Of a DNA stretch of 60,258 nt, positions 6,845-43,378 are shown one piece after another (within the stretch, counting starts at the first letter, position 1; every line of letters begins with the position of its first letter). The notes beneath the pieces are model-generated. The model had not been told where the DNA came from. It saw only the letters and a program-made list of their open reading frames with translations, and searched no databases. Made by a program: the position numbers and the translations under genes. Origin of the DNA: Patescibacteria group bacterium (lineage in GTDB: Bacteria > Patescibacteriota > Minisyncoccia > UBA6257 > GWB1-50-10). The DNA lies in assembly GCA_023474215.1 (NCBI GenBank), contig JAMCYI010000004.1:1-60258 (forward strand), in the 5' to 3' direction.

Positions 6845-6932
6845 ATTTTGAATTATAGAATTTTGAATTTCGATTGAATTCGAGAATTCATAAATTAAAT
6901 AATTCATTCGAAATTAAATCATTCGAAATTTA
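6845..6932. repeat. Inverted heptamer-repeat element, copy A1 (AATTTTG/TTCGAAA flavour)
   Basis: aattttgaatttcgattgaattcgagaattcataaattaaataattcattcgaaattaaatcattcgaaatt; nearly identical to 8830-8908. Confidence 0.8.
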
Positions 6933-8216
6933 AACTATCTTTTTGATTCTTCGGATTACCTCATCTATCTCTTTTCTCGTTGTTGTAATGCCGAAGCTGA
7001 ACCGGACGCTCCCCCGCACGCGCTCTTCGGGAAACCCCAGGGCATGGAGAACATGCGACGGCGTGAACGCCCGGGCCGAACAGGCCGAACCGGCCGAAGC
7101 CGCGATCCCCGCTTGATCGAGCTGTACCAAAAAATCGCCGGTGAATTCGCTCGGGAAATAAACGTTCAGGATATGCGGCGCATCGGCATTCCCGTTGATC
7201 TCCGCTTTTTTATACGCAGCCTTGAGCTTCTTCCAAAAATAATTTTTGGCATCCCCGACATACTTTGCGTTTTTGTTCCGCGACGCATAGGCGAGTTCCA
7301 CCGCCTTTCCGAAGCCGGCGACCGCGGGCGTGTTCTCCGTGCCAGAACGAAAACCGAACTCTTGGCCGCCACCCGTCACCTGCGGTGACAGAAATTTCGA
7401 ATTTTGAATTTCGAATTTTGAATTTACGTACAAGGCGCCGACGCCTTTCGGGCCGTACACTTTTTGGCCGGAGAGGGTCATAAGGTCGACGCCGAGTTTT
7501 TCGACATCGCAATCGAGGTACATCAACGCCTGCGCAGCGTCGGTATGAAAGAGCGGGTAGGAGGAGAAACTTGCCTCACGAAAAGACGGGGTCTCACTCG
7601 GCCAGCGACTCGTTCGCCCCTTGGCTCTCGCCCTCGCTCTCTCGCTTCGCTCGAACCCTGCCCGCTCGGACTCCGAGACACTTTTCTTAGAGACAAGTTT
7701 CTCCTCCTTAAATTTTTCTATGACGCTTGAGATTTTTTTAATTGGCTGGATGGTACCGATTTCGTTGTTCACATACATCACGGAGACGAGGATGGTTCGT
7801 TCATCGAGCGCTTCTTCCAATTTTTTGAGATCGACGACCCCCTTTTTGTCGACTGGGAGGACGACGACCTCGACGCCGTCACGTTCAAGCTCATGGGCGG
7901 TATCGAGAACCGATTCGTGTTCGATAGCCGAAACGATTACCTTGGGGGTTGGTCCTCCGTACCCTCGCACGATCCCGCGGAGCGCTAGGTTATTCGCTTC
8001 CGTTGCGGACCCGGTAAAAATGACTTCGCGGAATTCGGCGCCGATCGAGCGGGCAAACACCTCGCGAGCGGCATCCACGGCGGCCATCGCTTCTTGGCCG
8101 AATGAGTGGAGCGAACCCGGGTTGCCGTATTTCTCGGAAAAATACGGCAGCATTGTTTTTAAAGCCTCCGGACGGACTGGAGTTGATGCCGCATAATCTA
8201 AATAAATCTTTTTCAT
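6930..8216 (-). CDS. iscS: Cysteine desulfurase (IscS/NifS-type) carrying two repeat-derived in-frame insertions
   Basis: YLDYAAST, GNPGSLH, FTGSATEANN, HTDAAQ, SGQKVYGPKGVG, RSGTEN, AGSAC. Start placed at MKKIY (8216); the track starts at 8231. Confidence 0.9.
   Translation of the reverse strand: MKKIYLDYAASTPVRPEALKTMLPYFSEKYGNPGSLHSFGQEAMAAVDAAREVFARSIGAEFREVIFTGSATEANNLALRGIVRGYGGPTPKVIVSAIEHESVLDTAHELERDGVEVVVLPVDKKGVVDLKKLEEALDERTILVSVMYVNNEIGTIQPIKKISSVIEKFKEEKLVSKKSVSESERAGFERSERARARAKGRTSRWPSETPSFREASFSSYPLFHTDAAQALMYLDCDVEKLGVDLMTLSGQKVYGPKGVGALYVNSKFEIQNSKFLSPQVTGGGQEFGFRSGTENTPAVAGFGKAVELAYASRNKNAKYVGDAKNYFWKKLKAAYKKAEINGNADAPHILNVYFPSEFTGDFLVQLDQAGIAASAGSACSARAFTPSHVLHALGFPEERVRGSVRFSFGITTTRKEIDEVIRRIKKIV
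7391..7425. repeat. Heptamer-repeat tract in frame within iscS
   Basis: gaaatttcgaattttgaatttcgaattttgaattt encodes NSKFEIQNSKF. Confidence 0.75.
7559..7708. mobile_element. Palindromic miniature element inserted in frame in iscS (150 bp)
   Basis: Perfect 15-bp inverted ends aggaggagaaacttg / caagtttctcctcct. Core ctcgccctcgctc...gcccgctcggactccgagac is shared with 20089, 34208 and 42156. Confidence 0.75.
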
Positions 8217-8228
8217 GGTTTCAAGTAT

Positions 8229-8362
8229 CAAACAAAAACCTAAATCCTAAGCACTAAATTCTAAACAATATCCAAATCCAAAATCATAATGACCGAAACG
8301 TGTTTGGTATTTGGCGCTTTGAGCTTTATTTAGGATTTAGGATTTGGAATTTAGGATTTCGT
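8229..8362. repeat. Inverted heptamer-repeat element (CTAAATC/GATTTAG flavour)
   Basis: cctaaatcctaagcactaaattctaaac ... tttaggatttaggatttggaatttaggatt, between the mgtC-family stop and iscS. Confidence 0.8.
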
Positions 8363-8829: not shown

Positions 8830-8908
8830 AATTTTGAATTTTGAATTTCGATTGAATTCGAGAATTCGTGAATTAAGTAATTTACTCGAAATTAAATCAT
8901 TCGAAATT
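8830..8908. repeat. Inverted heptamer-repeat element, copy A2
   Basis: aattttgaattttgaatttcgattgaattcgagaattcgtgaattaagtaatttactcgaaattaaatcattcgaaatt; near-duplicate of 6845-6932. Confidence 0.8.
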
Positions 8909-15032: not shown

Positions 15033-15053
15033 CGCGACCCTTAAAAACCGAAT

Positions 15054-15328
15054 GCCGTGGTAGCTCAGTGGTAGAGCATTCGCCTGAACTCTTCGGGCAC
15101 CGATTCAGCAATGAGCCGGAAAAAACTGGGTGAATTCGGGGAAACTTCGCAAGAACAATCCCGAGCCAAGCCCCAACAAGAAGGTTGGGGAAGGTGTAGA
15201 GACTATCCCTTCGGGGAGTACCTCGATGTAAATCGGGGGAAGCGCCCAGCTCCGCAGAAGCGGATGATGATATAGTCCAACTTCGCAGGAAGAGCGATTG
15301 GTCGGGGGTTCGATTCCCTCCCGCGGCA
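15054..15328 (+). tRNA. tRNA-Phe(GAA) split by a group I intron (exons 15054-15085 and 15289-15328)
   Basis: Joined exons: GCCGTGG TA GCTC AGTGGTA GAGC A TTCGC CT|GAA GA GCGAT TGGTC GGGGG TTCGATT CCCTC CCGCGGC A. Confidence 0.88.
15086..15288 (+). mobile_element. ORF-less group I self-splicing intron (203 nt, IC3-like)
   Basis: P AATTCGGGGAAAC, Q AATCCCGAGC, R GTAGAGACTA, S GATATAGTCC. P1 GCCU/GGGC with U.G at the 5' splice site, P10 ctcttc/gaagag, terminal omega-G. Confidence 0.88.
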
Positions 15329-15329
15329 C

Positions 15330-15368
15330 AAATTCGAAATGCGTCCTTGGTGGACGCGTTTTGAATTT
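15330..15368 (+). terminator. Hairpin/terminator after tRNA-Phe
   Basis: aaattcgaaa-tgcgtcc-ttggt-ggacgcg-ttttgaattt. Confidence 0.55.
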
Positions 15369-18571: not shown

Positions 18572-20089
18572 ATGGAACTCATCCCCTGGATTGTGGGCAT
18601 TGTTGCAGGTTTGGCAATCGGATACGGCGTTCGGGTTTCAATCGCCAAGCGCCTTCAAAACTCACTCGAGAAAAAAGCAGAAGCGGAACTTGAATCCGCA
18701 AAGTCGGAAGCAAAAGAGATCGTCGTCGAAGCGAAGGATAAGGCCTCCTCGATCCTCGAGAACGCCAACAAGGAAGAGCGCGACCGAAAACAGGAACTCC
18801 GGCAGCTTGAAGAACGCCTCTTGAAGCGCGAGGACCTGCTCGATCAAAAACTTCGGGAACTGGACAACGGCGAAAAATCGCTGAAGTCAAAAGAGAACGA
18901 GATCAAGGAAAAGGAAAATGACGTGGAACACCTCCGCGAGCGCGCCGTCGGCGAGCTTGAAAAGGTTTCGGGGCTCACGAGGGAGGAAGCGCGGAAGGCG
19001 ATGTTCGAAGAGATCGAAACATCCGCAAAACAAGATCTCGCAACGTCGCTCGCCAAACTCGAACGCGAGCGCGAAGAAGAAATAGAAAAGAAAGCGAACG
19101 AGATCATCACGACAGCGATCCAGCGGTATTCGAGGAACGCGATCGCCGATGTGACGACCTCCGTCGTCGGACTCCCCGACGAAGACATCAAAGCGAAGAT
19201 CATCGGAAAAGAAGGGAGAAATATCCGGGCCTTCGAGCGCTTGACCGGCGTTGAGGTCATCGTGGACGAAACGCCGGAGAACGTGGTCCTTTCGTCATTC
19301 GATCCGATGCGACGCGAACTCGCCAAAATGGCGCTCGAAAAGCTCATCAAGGACGGCAGGATCCACCCCGCAAAGATCGAAGAGAAAGTCGAGGAAGCGC
19401 GCCAAGAACTCGAACAAAGGATACAAAAGATAGGAGAAGAGGCGGCATACGAAGTCGGCATTTTAGACCTTCCAAAAGAAATCGTGAATCTCCTCGGCAG
19501 ATTGAATTTCAGGACGAGCTACGGCCAAAACGTACTGCTCCACTCGGTTGAAATGGCGCACATCGCCGGCATGATGGCAACCGAACTCCACCTGAACGTC
19601 GATGTCGCAAAGAAGGGGGCCCTTCTTCACGACATCGGGAAAGCCGTCGACCATGAAGTGGAAGGAACGCACGTTGAGATCGGCAGAAAACTCTTGAAGA
19701 AGTACGGCATTGCTGAAAACGTCATCCAAGCCATGGAATCGCACCACGAAGAATACCCGTATGCGACGCCGGAATCGTACCTCGTCGCGGCAGCAGATGT
19801 CATTTCCGCGGCGCGGCCCGGCGCTCGGCGCGATACGCTCGAAAAATACATCAAGAGACTGGAAGACATCGAAAAGGCGGTCGGCAGCTTCGAAGGGGTC
19901 AAGCAATCGTATGCCGTTTCGGCAGGACGGGAAGTCAGAGTTTTCGTCGTCCCCGAGAAGATCGACGATTTTGGAGCCCTGGAACTCGCAAAGAAGATAT
20001 CCAACAAGATCCAATCGGACGTCCAATACCCCGGCGAGATCAAGGTAACCGTCATCCGTGAGGTGCGGGCGGTGGAGTACGCGAGGTAG
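18572..20089 (+). CDS. rny: Ribonuclease Y
   Basis: N-terminal TM, coiled coil, KH IIGKEGRNIR, HD motif LLHDIGKA, AAD.ISAARPGARR. Confidence 0.96.
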   Translation: MELIPWIVGIVAGLAIGYGVRVSIAKRLQNSLEKKAEAELESAKSEAKEIVVEAKDKASSILENANKEERDRKQELRQLEERLLKREDLLDQKLRELDNGEKSLKSKENEIKEKENDVEHLRERAVGELEKVSGLTREEARKAMFEEIETSAKQDLATSLAKLEREREEEIEKKANEIITTAIQRYSRNAIADVTTSVVGLPDEDIKAKIIGKEGRNIRAFERLTGVEVIVDETPENVVLSSFDPMRRELAKMALEKLIKDGRIHPAKIEEKVEEARQELEQRIQKIGEEAAYEVGILDLPKEIVNLLGRLNFRTSYGQNVLLHSVEMAHIAGMMATELHLNVDVAKKGALLHDIGKAVDHEVEGTHVEIGRKLLKKYGIAENVIQAMESHHEEYPYATPESYLVAAADVISAARPGARRDTLEKYIKRLEDIEKAVGSFEGVKQSYAVSAGREVRVFVVPEKIDDFGALELAKKISNKIQSDVQYPGEIKVTVIREVRAVEYAR

Positions 20090-20238
20090 GCGAAAAGGCT
20101 CGTTAATCCTCGAAAACACGCGCCAGTCCGCCCCAACCGGCGGACTGCGCTCGTTCTCGTCCTCGCTCGCACCCACGGGGGCGCCGTGCCCGCTCGGACT
20201 CCGAAACGGTTTTCTCGAACCAACGAGCTTTTCCCGCC
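20089..20238. mobile_element. Palindromic miniature element after rny stop
   Basis: Outer arms aaaaggctcgtt / aacgagctttt; scaffold cgaaaacacg-[gtccgcc/ggcggac]-gcgctcgttctcgtcctcgctc-[insert]-gtgcccgctcggactccgaaacggttttctcg. Confidence 0.8.
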
Positions 20239-20598: not shown

Positions 20599-20620
20599 GA
20601 GGCTAAGGAATATTTCTTAA

Positions 20621-20648
20621 CAAAAAACTCCCCATAGGGAGTTTTTTG
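20621..20648. terminator. Bidirectional intrinsic terminator
   Basis: caaaaaactccc-cata-gggagttttttg. Confidence 0.8.
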
Positions 20649-20668
20649 TTTTATTTATTCACTTTTCT

Positions 20669-34207: not shown

Positions 34208-34363
34208 CGGCTCTGATTTCTTCAAGAAAACCGTTGCGGAGTCCGAGCGGGCACGGTCCCAGCCAGTCCGTGGACCGGCTGGGGAGCGAGGATGAGGATG
34301 AGCACGAGCGCGCGTTTCACGCCGGGAAACGCGACGAGTGTTTGCGAGAAGAAATCAGAGCCG
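34208..34363. mobile_element. Palindromic miniature element between argS and ileS
   Basis: Perfect 16-bp arms cggctctgatttcttc / gaagaaatcagagccg; reverse-orientation scaffold aaaaccgttgcggagtccgagcgggcac...gcgagg...gagcgc...gtgtttgcg. Confidence 0.82.
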
Positions 34364-42155: not shown

Positions 42156-42437
42156 GGGAAGCCGGCTCGCTTTTCTCAAACACGCTGTCAATCCGCCCCA
42201 GCCGGCGGATTGCGCTCGCTCTCGACCTCGCTCGGAGAGGATCGGAAAGGTTCGTGCGGCAGCTCTCGGAGGTTCAAAAGCTCGGTTCCGCCGGTGAGGC
42301 GGATTTTGAACCGAGAGCGCAGGGCGGCGCTTGCCGCCGGAGCAAGCGAACGCCCGGTGCCGGTAGGGCCTTTCCGATCCTCTCCACCATGCCCGCTCGG
42401 TCTCCGAGACGGTTTGATCAGAGCGAGCCGGCTTCCC
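42156..42437. mobile_element. Nested palindromic miniature element after murB stop (282 bp)
   Basis: 16-bp arms gggaagccggctcgct / agcgagccggcttccc; inner 17-bp arms ggagaggatcggaaagg / cctttccgatcctctcc; same scaffold as 20089 and 34208. Confidence 0.85.
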
Positions 42438-43378
42438 TATTGCACATATCGCACCTCTTCCTCAAGGAGGATGCCGAATTTCCTATGTACCTTCTTCCTT
42501 AAAATATTTGCGAGCTTCCGCACGTCGGCGGCCTTCGCGCGCCCCTTATTGACGAAGAGGTTCCCGTGGAAAGAAGCGATCTCGATACCCCCAACGCGCA
42601 TCCCCTTCGAACCGACCGACTCCAAAAGGTATCCGGCCGGTATTTTTCCATCGATGATTTTCGATCGGTCGATCCTTTCAAGGGATTTTCGCGGAACATC
42701 GGCGGCGAGGACATTCTTAAAGAAACTTCCGGGACATTTGATCCCCGGCTTGTACTTTTTCTCGCGTATCGCAATGATATGCCTCGAGATCCGTCTCAAG
42801 GCCGCCGCATTCCCCGCCTTGAATCCAAGCCGAATCCGCAAAACAAGCCACTGCCGTTCTTTAAAGACGCTTTGGCGATAAGCGAAGTTGCACTCGCGTT
42901 TCGAGATCCACCGCTTTTTTTTACCGTCCCAAATTTCAACGGACTTGACGATCTCGGCGATGGAGTGGCCGTATGCACCGGCATTTCCGACGACCGCACC
43001 ACCGACCGTTCCCGGTATCCCCGAGAGCGTCTCGAGCCCCGAAAGTCCCCGGCCGATGGATCTTTTCACAACTTCGCCGAGAAGGACGCCGCCGTCCGCC
43101 ACACACTCTTTTCCTTGAAAAGAGATTTTCCCTCCAAAAAACCGCAAAACAAGCCCCTTCAACTTTCCATCGGGAAAGACAGTGTTGCTTCCCCCCGCAA
43201 ATATCGTGAGGGGCATCTTATTTTTTTTCGCCCATTCTGCAATATCGACGAATTTCTCGGGCGTCTCGGCAATGGCAAGATACTCAGAAACTCCGCCGAT
43301 CTTGAACGTCGAAAGCGGAGCGAGTTTTGCGTCTTTTTTGATCTTAAATTGAGTGAAAACCTCCGGCCGAGTCATCAA
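42437..43378 (-). CDS. murB: UDP-N-acetylenolpyruvoylglucosamine reductase
   Basis: STFKIGG, GGSN, GLETLSGIPGTVGGAVVGNAGAYG, FAYRQS.F, GSFFKN, HGNLFVN, LEEEV. Confidence 0.95.
   Translation of the reverse strand: MMTRPEVFTQFKIKKDAKLAPLSTFKIGGVSEYLAIAETPEKFVDIAEWAKKNKMPLTIFAGGSNTVFPDGKLKGLVLRFFGGKISFQGKECVADGGVLLGEVVKRSIGRGLSGLETLSGIPGTVGGAVVGNAGAYGHSIAEIVKSVEIWDGKKKRWISKRECNFAYRQSVFKERQWLVLRIRLGFKAGNAAALRRISRHIIAIREKKYKPGIKCPGSFFKNVLAADVPRKSLERIDRSKIIDGKIPAGYLLESVGSKGMRVGGIEIASFHGNLFVNKGRAKAADVRKLANILRKKVHRKFGILLEEEVRYVQ

What the first reader, a model, noticed from the sequence alone, without database searches (positions are those of the whole stretch)
7559..7708. 150-bp palindromic element translated as a ~50-aa insertion inside cysteine desulfurase
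Seen: perfect 15-bp inverted ends span exactly 150 bp (50 codons) and give the low-complexity peptide EEKLVSKKSVSESERAGFERSERARARAKGRTSRWPSETPSFREASFS just before HTDAAQ. The core matches the intergenic elements at 20089, 34208 and 42156. Established analogy: Rickettsia palindromic elements also sit in frame in conserved proteins. Inference: one arm may be an inverted copy of target coding sequence made on insertion. The hairpin might alternatively be skipped or excised at RNA level.
Basis: partly seen in the sequence, partly recalled or inferred. Interest (0 to 1): 0.65.

Follow-up and report, generated by a model that had tools for sequence, protein, structure and literature searches.

The report
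Palindromic mobile element translated inside IscS
A 150-bp hairpin-forming repeat sits in frame in a cysteine desulfurase gene of an uncultured (CPR-like) bacterium and is most likely translated as a floppy 50-residue surface loop; it belongs to a large, apparently undescribed, structure-conserved element family found in many uncultivated phyla and in other essential genes.

Summary
In detail: 7559-7708 is a 150-bp palindrome with 19-nt arms (18/19 paired). It adds 50 stop-free codons to the minus-strand iscS/nifS gene just before HTDAAQ. Solved homologues have about 6 residues there, and most orthologues have 3-10.

It is one of four copies in the window, plus one nested copy. The family has at least 100 copies of about 120-170 nt in Patescibacteria, Omnitrophota, WOR-3, Thermotogae-labelled MAGs, Bipolaricaulota, Planctomycetota and Actinomycetota MAGs. 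No Rfam family matches and I found no paper on it.

The core is a three-way junction with strong covariation. Wobble pairs single out the purine-rich strand as the structured one.

Most copies are intergenic. One subfamily sits in frame in IscS, TsaD, FolD and LeuRS, and another copy in DnaX, in either orientation and in different frames.

In the insert, identity between orthologues is flat across codon positions (0.72/0.76/0.70), against 0.69/0.81/0.36 in the rest of the gene. So the nucleic acid is conserved, not the peptide.

The outer 8 bp of the iscS stem lie outside the element's own inverted repeat; the 5' side encodes K-E-E and the 3' side is its inverted copy.

Nothing supports RNA-level excision. 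How the element moves is unknown.

The parts
6930..8231 (-). iscS/nifS-type cysteine desulfurase gene (433 aa). The PLP and active-site residues H229, D231, Q234, K257 and C384 are intact.
   Evidence: ORF. Homologues are Pfam PF00266 cysteine desulfurases, with these columns invariant. PDB cysteine desulfurases match at E=2e-86. The AF2 fold has pLDDT above 90 outside the inserts.
7559..7708 (-). The whole 150-bp palindromic element, giving 50 in-frame codons (residues 175-224). The structured purine-rich strand is the mRNA sense strand here.
7701..7708 (-). Outer extension of the 5' (sense) arm, AGGAGGAG, covering codons (A)AG GAG GAG = K-E-E. It lies outside the subfamily's own inverted repeat and is probably native iscS sequence.
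   Evidence: Comparison of IscS, TsaD, FolD and intergenic copies of the subfamily. A K/E-rich motif follows F-[KR] in 12 of 105 element-free orthologues.
7559..7566 (-). Outer extension of the 3' (sense) arm, CTCCTCCT (encodes ...S-S). It is the inverted copy of the K-E-E codons.
   Evidence: In the Liptonbacteria orthologue it co-varies with the 5' extension.
7690..7700 (-). The subfamily's own terminal inverted repeat, 5' copy (sense AAACTTGTCTC).
   Evidence: The same 11 bp occur in TsaD copies L126 and L129.
7567..7577 (-). The subfamily's own terminal inverted repeat, 3' copy (sense GAGGCAAGTTT). It holds one G.U pair on the sense strand, which is a C-A mismatch on the other strand.
7575..7694 (-). 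Conserved three-way-junction core: P1b (GAAAAG/CUUUUC), the P3 domain with tandem G.A loops (CGGAGUCCGAGCGGGCA...GAGCGAGGGCGAG), and the P2 arm with a CGCUGG loop.
   Evidence: Covariance model hit of 75.5 bits, E=2e-21. Structure and covariation.
20089..20238 (-). Intergenic copy B (150 bp). It starts at the last base of the stop codon of an RNase Y-like gene (my reading of its sequence, not a database match).
34208..34363 (+). Intergenic copy C (156 bp), lying between two minus-strand genes.
42156..42437 (-). Intergenic copy D (282 bp). Its last base is the first base of the stop codon of gene 42437..43378(-).
42248..42368 (+). A diverged copy nested in opposite orientation inside the P3b hairpin loop of copy D.
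   Evidence: Covariance model hit of 25.2 bits, E=7e-6.

Best explanation
The 150-bp feature is a copy of a non-autonomous palindromic repeat element that lies in frame in a permissive surface loop of IscS, between the helix ending ...IEKFK and the strand YPLFHTDAAQ. The ribosome reads through it, giving a 50-residue, poorly ordered excursion that the enzyme tolerates. This is selfish DNA of the kind known from Rickettsia palindromic elements.

Shown:
- It belongs to a family of at least 100 copies in many phyla.
- The family has a conserved three-way-junction fold supported by covariation.
- Constraint acts on one strand (the purine-rich one) and at the nucleotide level, not on the peptide.
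- It occurs in frame in several essential proteins, in both orientations.
- The outer 8 bp of the stem are specific to the iscS copies.

Inferred:
- The insert is translated rather than removed.
- The core can flip in place by recombination between its arms.
- The stem was extended into host sequence by fold-back or template-switch copying of the K-E-E codons.
- The element moves as a folded single strand with help from an unidentified factor acting in trans, possibly at GA dinucleotides.
For: Family and fold:
- At least 100 covariance-model hits in about 0.9 Mb of loci from many phyla, plus four copies and one nested copy in the window.
- 86.7% of cells are paired against 64.6% in shuffles. 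The covariation score is 0.588 against 0.201 shuffled (0 of 500 reach it) and 0.09-0.20 for slid controls.
- The N-N' pair in P3a shows GC 27, CG 8, UA 5, AU 4.

Structured strand:
- In the outer stems there are 71 A.C against 22 G.T mismatches on the pyrimidine-rich strand, scored symmetrically.
- In the inner helices there are 81 G.U against 23 A.C on the purine-rich strand, p=9e-9.

In-frame insertions:
- IscS: 14 orthologues, plus P0121.
- FolD, DnaX and TsaD, confirmed by Pfam.
- Six of seven metagenome copies of the iscS subfamily are in frame: four in TsaD-like ORFs, one in a LeuRS-like ORF (both my reading of the sequences) and one in IscS.

The peptide is not what is conserved:
- Window against L120: identity by codon position is 0.72/0.76/0.70 in the insert and 0.69/0.81/0.36 in the rest of the gene.
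- The Liptonbacteria orthologue L122 carries the same subfamily inverted at the same site, 81% identical over 144 nt, while the genes are 59% identical. It therefore encodes an unrelated peptide.

The stem is maintained:
- There are four two-sided compensatory changes between the window and L120, and four more between the window and L122 (sequences; comparison by eye).

Tolerance:
- The AF2 model keeps the fold above pLDDT 90, with the 10-residue blocks across the insert (181-220) at 44-73.
- Catalytic residues are intact.
- The element core is free of stops in 3.3 of 6 frames on average, against 1.8 for shuffles.

No conserved neighbouring gene was found.
Against: - There is no transcript or protein evidence. 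The only metatranscriptomes from the same study contain almost nothing from this organism; not even its tmRNA is covered.
- No empty allele turned up in close relatives, so the order of events (insertion, extension, excision) is inferred from distant orthologues.
- Nucleotide conservation far above that of synonymous sites fits poorly with a purely selfish copy inherited vertically at a fixed locus. It needs selection on the copy, homogenisation by other copies, or repeated insertion.
- When a copy lies within 40 nt of a stop codon, the structured strand is antisense to that gene in 22 cases and sense in 7. The model does not explain this.
- In-frame copies are found more easily than frame-breaking ones, because my screens used intact ORFs.
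Confidence: 0.72

Rival explanations
1. The element is removed or skipped after transcription, by self-splicing or self-cleavage and ligation, by a host RNA-processing enzyme acting on the long stem, or by ribosome bypass as in T4 gene 60 or the mitochondrial 'byp' elements (my recollection). The mature protein would then lack the 50 residues.
For: The stem brings the two junctions together, and the sense-strand RNA folds strongly (-72.5 kcal/mol, z=-4.8). In the window's iscS the structured strand is the mRNA strand. The window also holds a group I intron, so self-splicing RNAs exist in this genome.
Against: No Rfam intron or ribozyme family matches, even at E up to 10. The same site in IscS, and the same loop in TsaD, holds the element in both orientations, which a strand-specific RNA mechanism would not tolerate. 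Every intragenic copy found is in frame and free of stops, which removal would not require. The codons flanking the insert (TTT AAG ... TCC TAC) do not match as take-off and landing codons would.
Confidence: 0.06
2. The family is a structured RNA or single-stranded DNA that benefits the host, for example a two-way terminator, an mRNA-end stabiliser or a protein-binding site. The iscS copy is then either a by-product or itself regulatory, for example as a translational pause site. This can be true alongside the selfish-element reading.
For: The core is strongly conserved across phyla. Conservation exceeds that of synonymous sites. 29 of 70 copies lie within 40 nt of a gene's stop codon. A copy sits 12-18 nt downstream of an RNase Y-like gene in two genomes whose proteins are 60% identical. 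The P1b pair GAAAAC/GUUUUC puts a U-run after a hairpin in both orientations, and the terminator scan flags 20142-20121(-) and 7665-7677(+).
Against: Terminator-like sites are no more frequent than in shuffled sequence, and the genome has ordinary terminators, for example 20619-20650. There are several copies per 60 kb in unrelated places, in both orientations, nested in one another and inside ORFs, which is how a mobile repeat behaves. The structured strand is usually antisense to the adjacent upstream gene, so that gene's transcript would not usually carry it.
Confidence: 0.2
3. The 50 residues are a lineage-specific functional loop of IscS kept by selection on the protein, and the palindrome is incidental.
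For: Fourteen of about 116 orthologues keep an insert of similar length at this site. AF2 predicts helices in it, but with low confidence.
Against: Identity across the insert shows no codon periodicity. Orthologues with the inverted core encode an unrelated peptide (DGVSLAQPIAHPLDSRPRS...). The same DNA is read in another frame in TsaD. The same sequence also occurs in intergenic DNA.
Confidence: 0.03

Closest known systems
Rickettsia palindromic elements (RPEs)
   Same: Palindromic repeats of about 100-150 bp with no gene of their own. They lie between genes and, in frame, inside unrelated housekeeping genes without destroying them (review PMC10969869). The insertion falls in a surface loop.
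   Different: The host is a different phylum, and the family spans many phyla. RPE families each encode a conserved peptide; this element is read in several frames and in both orientations, and is conserved as nucleic acid. It has a covariation-supported three-way-junction core, a stem whose outer part differs from copy to copy, and copies flipped at the same site. Sequence relatedness to RPE-1 to RPE-10 could not be tested here.
Bacterial MITEs and other palindromic repeats (ERIC, Correia, BOX/RUP/SPRITE)
   Same: Short, non-coding, multi-copy and hairpin-forming. Mostly intergenic, sometimes intragenic, and some resemble terminators (for the class; the rest is my own knowledge).
   Different: Terminal repeats are not conserved across the family, only within subfamilies (11 bp). 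No parent insertion sequence or transposase lies near any copy. At most a GA dinucleotide flanks the element: 17 of 63 on the left, 15 of 63 on the right, 10 on both, against a 6.7% background. It is the interior that is conserved, not the ends.
REP/BIME (REPIN) elements mobilised by RAYT transposases, and IS200/IS605-derived palindromic elements
   Same: Recognition seems to depend on a folded single strand, and the P2 stem carries a bulged base, both reminiscent of substrates of HUH transposases (my own knowledge).
   Different: REPs are 20-40 bp with GTAG or CGTC heads (abstract of PMC3733652). This element is 120-170 nt with a three-way junction and no such head. No Y1 transposase gene was seen in the flanking DNA.
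Translational bypass elements (T4 gene 60; mitochondrial 'byps')
   Same: Hairpin-forming insertions inside essential coding sequences (my own knowledge).
   Different: Those are not translated and need not keep the frame. Here every intragenic copy is in frame and free of stops, in either orientation.

Membership tests
Rickettsia palindromic elements (RPE) | Palindromic repeat of about 100-150 bp, present in many copies per genome | tested here: met
   150 bp with 19-nt arms. Four copies plus one nested copy in 60 kb.
Rickettsia palindromic elements (RPE) | In-frame insertion in unrelated protein-coding genes that stay intact | tested here: met
   IscS, FolD, DnaX and TsaD (Pfam-confirmed), plus a LeuRS-like ORF.
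Rickettsia palindromic elements (RPE) | Each family encodes a conserved peptide (PMC10969869) | tested here: not met
   Read in at least three frames and both orientations, and identity is flat across codon positions.
Rickettsia palindromic elements (RPE) | Sequence similarity to RPE-1 to RPE-10 of Rickettsia | not testable with these tools
   No RPE consensus or Rickettsia collection was available. The host is a CPR-like MAG.
Classical MITE | Terminal inverted repeats conserved among copies and shared with a parent insertion sequence | tested here: not met
   Outer stems differ between copies. Only subfamilies share about 11 bp. No transposase gene recurs next to copies in 67 loci.
Classical MITE | Target-site duplication of fixed length | tested here: inconclusive
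   GA flanks the stem on the left in 17 of 63 copies, on the right in 15 and on both sides in 10, against a 6.7% background. It is clear in the TsaD copies and absent at the iscS copy.
REP/REPIN | 20-40 bp palindrome with a GTAG or CGTC head | tested here: not met
   The element is 120-170 nt and has no such head.
Group I or II intron, or a known self-cleaving ribozyme | Match to the family's covariance model; works in one strand only | tested here: not met
   No Rfam 15 match at gathering score or at E up to 10. Both orientations occur at the same site.
Translational bypass element | The insert need not keep the frame; matching take-off and landing codons | tested here: not met
   All intragenic copies are in frame and free of stops. 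The flanking codons AAG and TAC differ.
Any Rfam 15 RNA family | Score at or above the family's gathering threshold | tested here: not met

The most novel reading that the evidence does not exclude
The family may be a previously unrecognised kind of mobile, structure-defined nucleic acid: a three-way junction of about 120 nt with tandem G.A loops, conserved across at least seven bacterial phyla. It would be recognised as a folded single strand, RNA or DNA, by an unknown machine acting in trans. It would flip in place, nest into hairpin loops, extend its closing stem by copying host flanks in inverted orientation, and leave small palindromic scars. That would make it a major source of the loop insertions that make CPR proteins vary so much in length.
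Probability: 0.3. Interest if true: 0.85.

Novelty: new variant of a known kind. Interest (0 to 1): 0.68.

Why it matters
If this reading is right, in-frame selfish DNA of the RPE kind is not a peculiarity of Rickettsia. It recurs in the small genomes of uncultivated bacteria and helps explain why their housekeeping proteins carry variable low-complexity loops.

It gives annotators a covariance model with which to flag such insertions, and to spot false N-terminal extensions (see the L121 item under noticed in passing).

The family itself raises a testable question: what recognises a strongly conserved three-way junction, structured on one strand only, in so many phyla, and how does it move without a gene of its own?

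The iscS, TsaD and FolD insertions are natural experiments on how much a surface loop of an essential enzyme can be lengthened.

Tried and rejected
- Rfam at gathering score over the whole window, and at E up to 10 on copy B: no family matches.
- Word-indexed protein search with the 49-aa insert peptide: nothing.
- HMM of five insert peptides against 1.84 billion representative proteins: one hit, another IscS.
- Metatranscriptomes X13-X15 from the same study: essentially no coverage of this organism, not even its tmRNA, so there is no RNA evidence either way.
- Search for element-free alleles. Contigs of related strains in X8-X11 keep copies A and B. A junction pattern for an empty iscS site found nothing in the metagenome contigs.
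- Viral contigs: one pattern match, which the covariance model rejected. Plasmids: no match.
- Guilt by association: no protein family recurs beside the copies. An apparent link to ileS turned out to be a mixed aminoacyl-tRNA-synthetase cluster with no constant position.
- Terminator and promoter scans: not above shuffled expectation.
- Orientation against GC skew: a weak bias only, 47 of 74, p=0.03.
- I first read P0007's KAEKKSFYSK as proof that the 5' arm is native. It contains element-like P1b sequence and may equally be an excision scar.
- The motif F-[KR]-x-E-[KR] occurs in only 12 of 105 element-free orthologues, so calling the K-E-E codons native is suggestive, not proven.
- Four literature searches found no description of this element.

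Full report
**1. What is there**

The minus-strand ORF 6930-8231 encodes a 433-aa class-V aminotransferase of the IscS/NifS type. Positions 7559-7708 form a 150-bp palindrome. Its 19-nt arms are 18/19 complementary and lie 112 nt apart. The terminal 14-mer occurs nowhere else in the window.

Independent assemblies carry it. A 1852-nt Logan contig of run X2 spans 6900-8207 with no gap, at the same depth as the flanks. A strain about 95% identical, in run X8, has it too.

Solved cysteine desulfurases align in two blocks, query 7-171 and 226-433. About 54 residues of the query face 6 residues of the solved chain. The catalytic His, Asp, Gln, Lys and Cys are all present. An AlphaFold2 model built on 24 orthologues keeps the fold above pLDDT 90. 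The 10-residue blocks across the insert (181-220) reach only 44-73.

**2. It is a repeat family, not a private loop**

The window holds three more copies, at 20089-20238, 34208-34363 and 42156-42437. The last one has a fifth, diverged copy nested in opposite orientation inside one of its hairpin loops.

About two thirds are real copies. They come from:
- Patescibacteria, including Saccharibacteria, Liptonbacteria, Uhrbacteria, Falkowbacteria and Moranbacteria;
- Omnitrophota and WOR-3;
- MAGs labelled Thermotogae;
- Bipolaricaulota and Planctomycetota;
- one Actinomycetota MAG and one Eubacteriales MAG.

The remainder are chance matches in high-GC coding DNA.

Two of the loci (L006, L079) are the window's own genome, deposited as 'MAG: bacterium isolate WY2.bin70'. 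A covariance model built from 46 copies found 82 hits in the first 100 loci and 18 in the next 25.

Nothing in Rfam 15 matches, at gathering score or at E up to 10. Four full-text searches found no description. The element is absent from plasmids and, in effect, from viral contigs.

**3. Anatomy**

Read on its purine-rich strand, the element runs in this order:
- an outer stem, P1, that varies from copy to copy;
- P1b, GAAAAC paired with GUUUUC;
- a P3 domain, CUC-GGA-GNCC-GA-GC-GGGCAYGGU-[variable hairpin]-GA-GC-GA-GGN'C-GA-GAG, in which two internal loops are tandem G.A;
- a P2 hairpin with a bulged base and a (Y)CGCUGG loop.

Covariation is strong:
- 86.7% of cells are paired, against 64.6% after shuffling.
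- The covariation score is 0.588, against 0.201 shuffled (0 of 500 shuffles reach it) and 0.09-0.20 when partners are slid.
- 26 of 32 pairs show changes on both sides.
- The single variable base N in GGAGNCC co-varies with N' (GC 27, CG 8, UA 5, AU 4).

Mismatches show which strand matters. In the outer stems, scored symmetrically, there are 71 A.C against 22 G.T on the pyrimidine-rich strand. In the inner helices there are 81 G.U against 23 A.C on the purine-rich strand, p=9e-9. That second alignment was fitted to the model, so it leans that way. The tandem G.A loops also make sense only on the purine-rich strand.

Whether the folded form is RNA or single-stranded DNA cannot be decided here.

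**4. Where copies sit**

About 85% of copies are intergenic, often tight against a stop codon. Of 70 copies, 29 lie within 40 nt of one. In 22 of those the structured strand is antisense to that gene, and in 7 it is sense. I cannot explain this bias.

No protein family recurs next to the copies, so the element carries no gene of its own and has no constant partner nearby.

On the purine-rich strand, GA flanks the outer stem more often than the 6.7% background predicts: 17 of 63 on the left, 15 on the right and 10 on both. This may be a 2-bp target duplication, a target preference, or one more G.A cap on the helix.

**5. In-frame copies are a pattern**

Among 116 close IscS orthologues, 14 carry the element at the same site. 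Ten have the window's orientation and four have the core inverted.

Other in-frame hosts are FolD, DnaX and TsaD, all confirmed by Pfam. There is also a copy at a second site in an IscS gene (L124).

A metagenome scan for the iscS subfamily returned seven copies, six of them in frame. Four are in TsaD-like ORFs, in both orientations in the same loop. One is in a LeuRS-like ORF and one in IscS. The TsaD and LeuRS assignments for these ORFs are my reading of their sequences.

The core is unusually open to translation: 3.3 of its 6 frames lack stops, against 1.8 for shuffles. About one random insertion in six would therefore keep a reading frame.

**6. What is conserved is the nucleic acid**

Between the window and orthologue L120 (same orientation and frame), identity by codon position is 0.69/0.81/0.36 in the gene. 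In the insert it is 0.72/0.76/0.70. So the insert shows no coding periodicity, and its third positions are twice as conserved as the gene's.

The Liptonbacteria orthologue L122 is 59% identical in nucleotides over the gene. It carries the same subfamily inverted at the same site, 81% identical over 144 nt, and so encodes an unrelated peptide. In TsaD the same DNA is read in yet another frame.

A specific role for the peptide is therefore very unlikely. The high nucleotide conservation needs one of three things: selection on the element, homogenisation by other copies, or repeated insertion.

**7.

Lining up the subfamily's copies shows that it has its own inverted repeat, AAACTTGYCTC...GAGGCAAGTTT. 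IscS and TsaD copies in different genomes share it.

In the window's iscS the palindrome continues for 8 more bp. On the 5' side, AGGAGGAG gives the K-E-E codons that follow the native F-K. On the 3' side, CTCCTCCT gives S-S before YPLFH.

L122 has AGAAGAAA / TTTCTTCT at the same places. The two sides have therefore changed together, at what are third codon positions in both arms. Between the window and L120, four more pairs changed on both sides.

A K/E-rich motif after F-[KR] occurs in 12 of 105 element-free orthologues. The 5' extension is thus plausibly native sequence and the 3' extension its inverted copy.

Fold-back or template-switch synthesis at the hairpin would produce such an extension. 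That is my inference, not a result.

Some element-free orthologues carry small palindromes at this site, for example GAGAAA-AA-TTTCTC in L124. P0007 keeps only one arm. These are either excision scars or seeds for a later insertion, and I cannot tell which.

**8. Excision or bypass**

I found nothing in favour beyond the stable hairpin. The evidence against:
- there is no intron or ribozyme match;
- both orientations occur at one site in two different host genes;
- the frame is invariably kept;
- the flanking codons do not match as take-off and landing codons would.

The only metatranscriptomes from the same study hold almost nothing from this organism, so the direct test is still to be done.

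**9. Verdict**

The element is not shown to be an RPE, and it differs in having no conserved peptide.

I file it as a new variant of a known kind: a palindromic, non-autonomous repeat that is translated when it lands in a permissive loop. It belongs to a large, structure-conserved family found in many phyla, for which I found no description. How it moves and whether it serves the host remain open.

Noticed in passing
window 7396-7422 (inside iscS), 6855-6874 and 8833-8852 (intergenic): A second, AT-rich repeat (TTCGAATTTTGAATTTCGAA) is also read in frame in iscS, as NSKFEIQNSKF just before GGGQE. Solved homologues have a gap of about 6 residues there, and AF2 gives pLDDT 40-54. Orthologues carry similar SKFEIRNSKF-type palindromic inserts at three or more loop sites.
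   Followed up: partly
window 15076-15299 (+), within about 15052-15335: A group I intron (Rfam RF00028, 53.2 bits) interrupts what looks like a tRNA gene in its anticodon loop (GCCGTGGTAGCTCAGTGGTAGAGCATTCGCCTGAA | intron | ...GGGTTCGATTCCC). By eye it is tRNA-Phe(GAA). ARAGORN did not call it.
   Followed up: partly
window 42248-42368 (+) inside 42156-42437: One copy of the element is nested, in opposite orientation, in the P3b hairpin loop of another. In L086 a plain hairpin sits in the P2 loop, and in L018 one sits in P3b. Hairpin loops therefore seem to be favoured insertion points.
   Followed up: partly
70 element copies in loci L001-L100 and the window: When a copy lies within 40 nt of a stop codon, its structured purine-rich strand is antisense to that gene in 22 cases and sense in 7. 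I have no explanation.
   Followed up: partly
window 20089-20238; L021:5569-5686: A copy lies 12-18 nt downstream of the stop codon of an RNase Y-like gene, in the same orientation, in two genomes whose RNase Y-like proteins are 60% identical. This is either an old orthologous insertion or a preferred site.
   Followed up: no
L121:1456-1574 (-), overlapping the start of the IscS gene at 1501: The annotated N-terminal extension of protein P0054 (MTLALALSLRSNHARSGSETLL...) is the translation of an element copy lying over the gene's start. It is probably a mis-called start codon.
   Followed up: no
L124:504-621 (-) within IscS gene 147-1577: An IscS gene with no element at the HTDAAQ site carries a diverged copy (39 bits) at another position in the gene. 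I did not map it onto the protein.
   Followed up: no
window 20041-20230, compared with contigs of run X8: Two strain variants of intergenic copy B differ from the window at 8 of 190 positions, against 4 of 571 and 7 of 600 in the flanks. One variant has an extra G that would turn a bulged C in the outer stem into a pair (my reading of the stem). The element varies faster than the DNA around it within the species.
   Followed up: partly
L004:2611-2724 (-) and L004:2765-2880 (+): Two copies lie 40 nt apart in opposite orientation in a Patescibacteria MAG.
   Followed up: no
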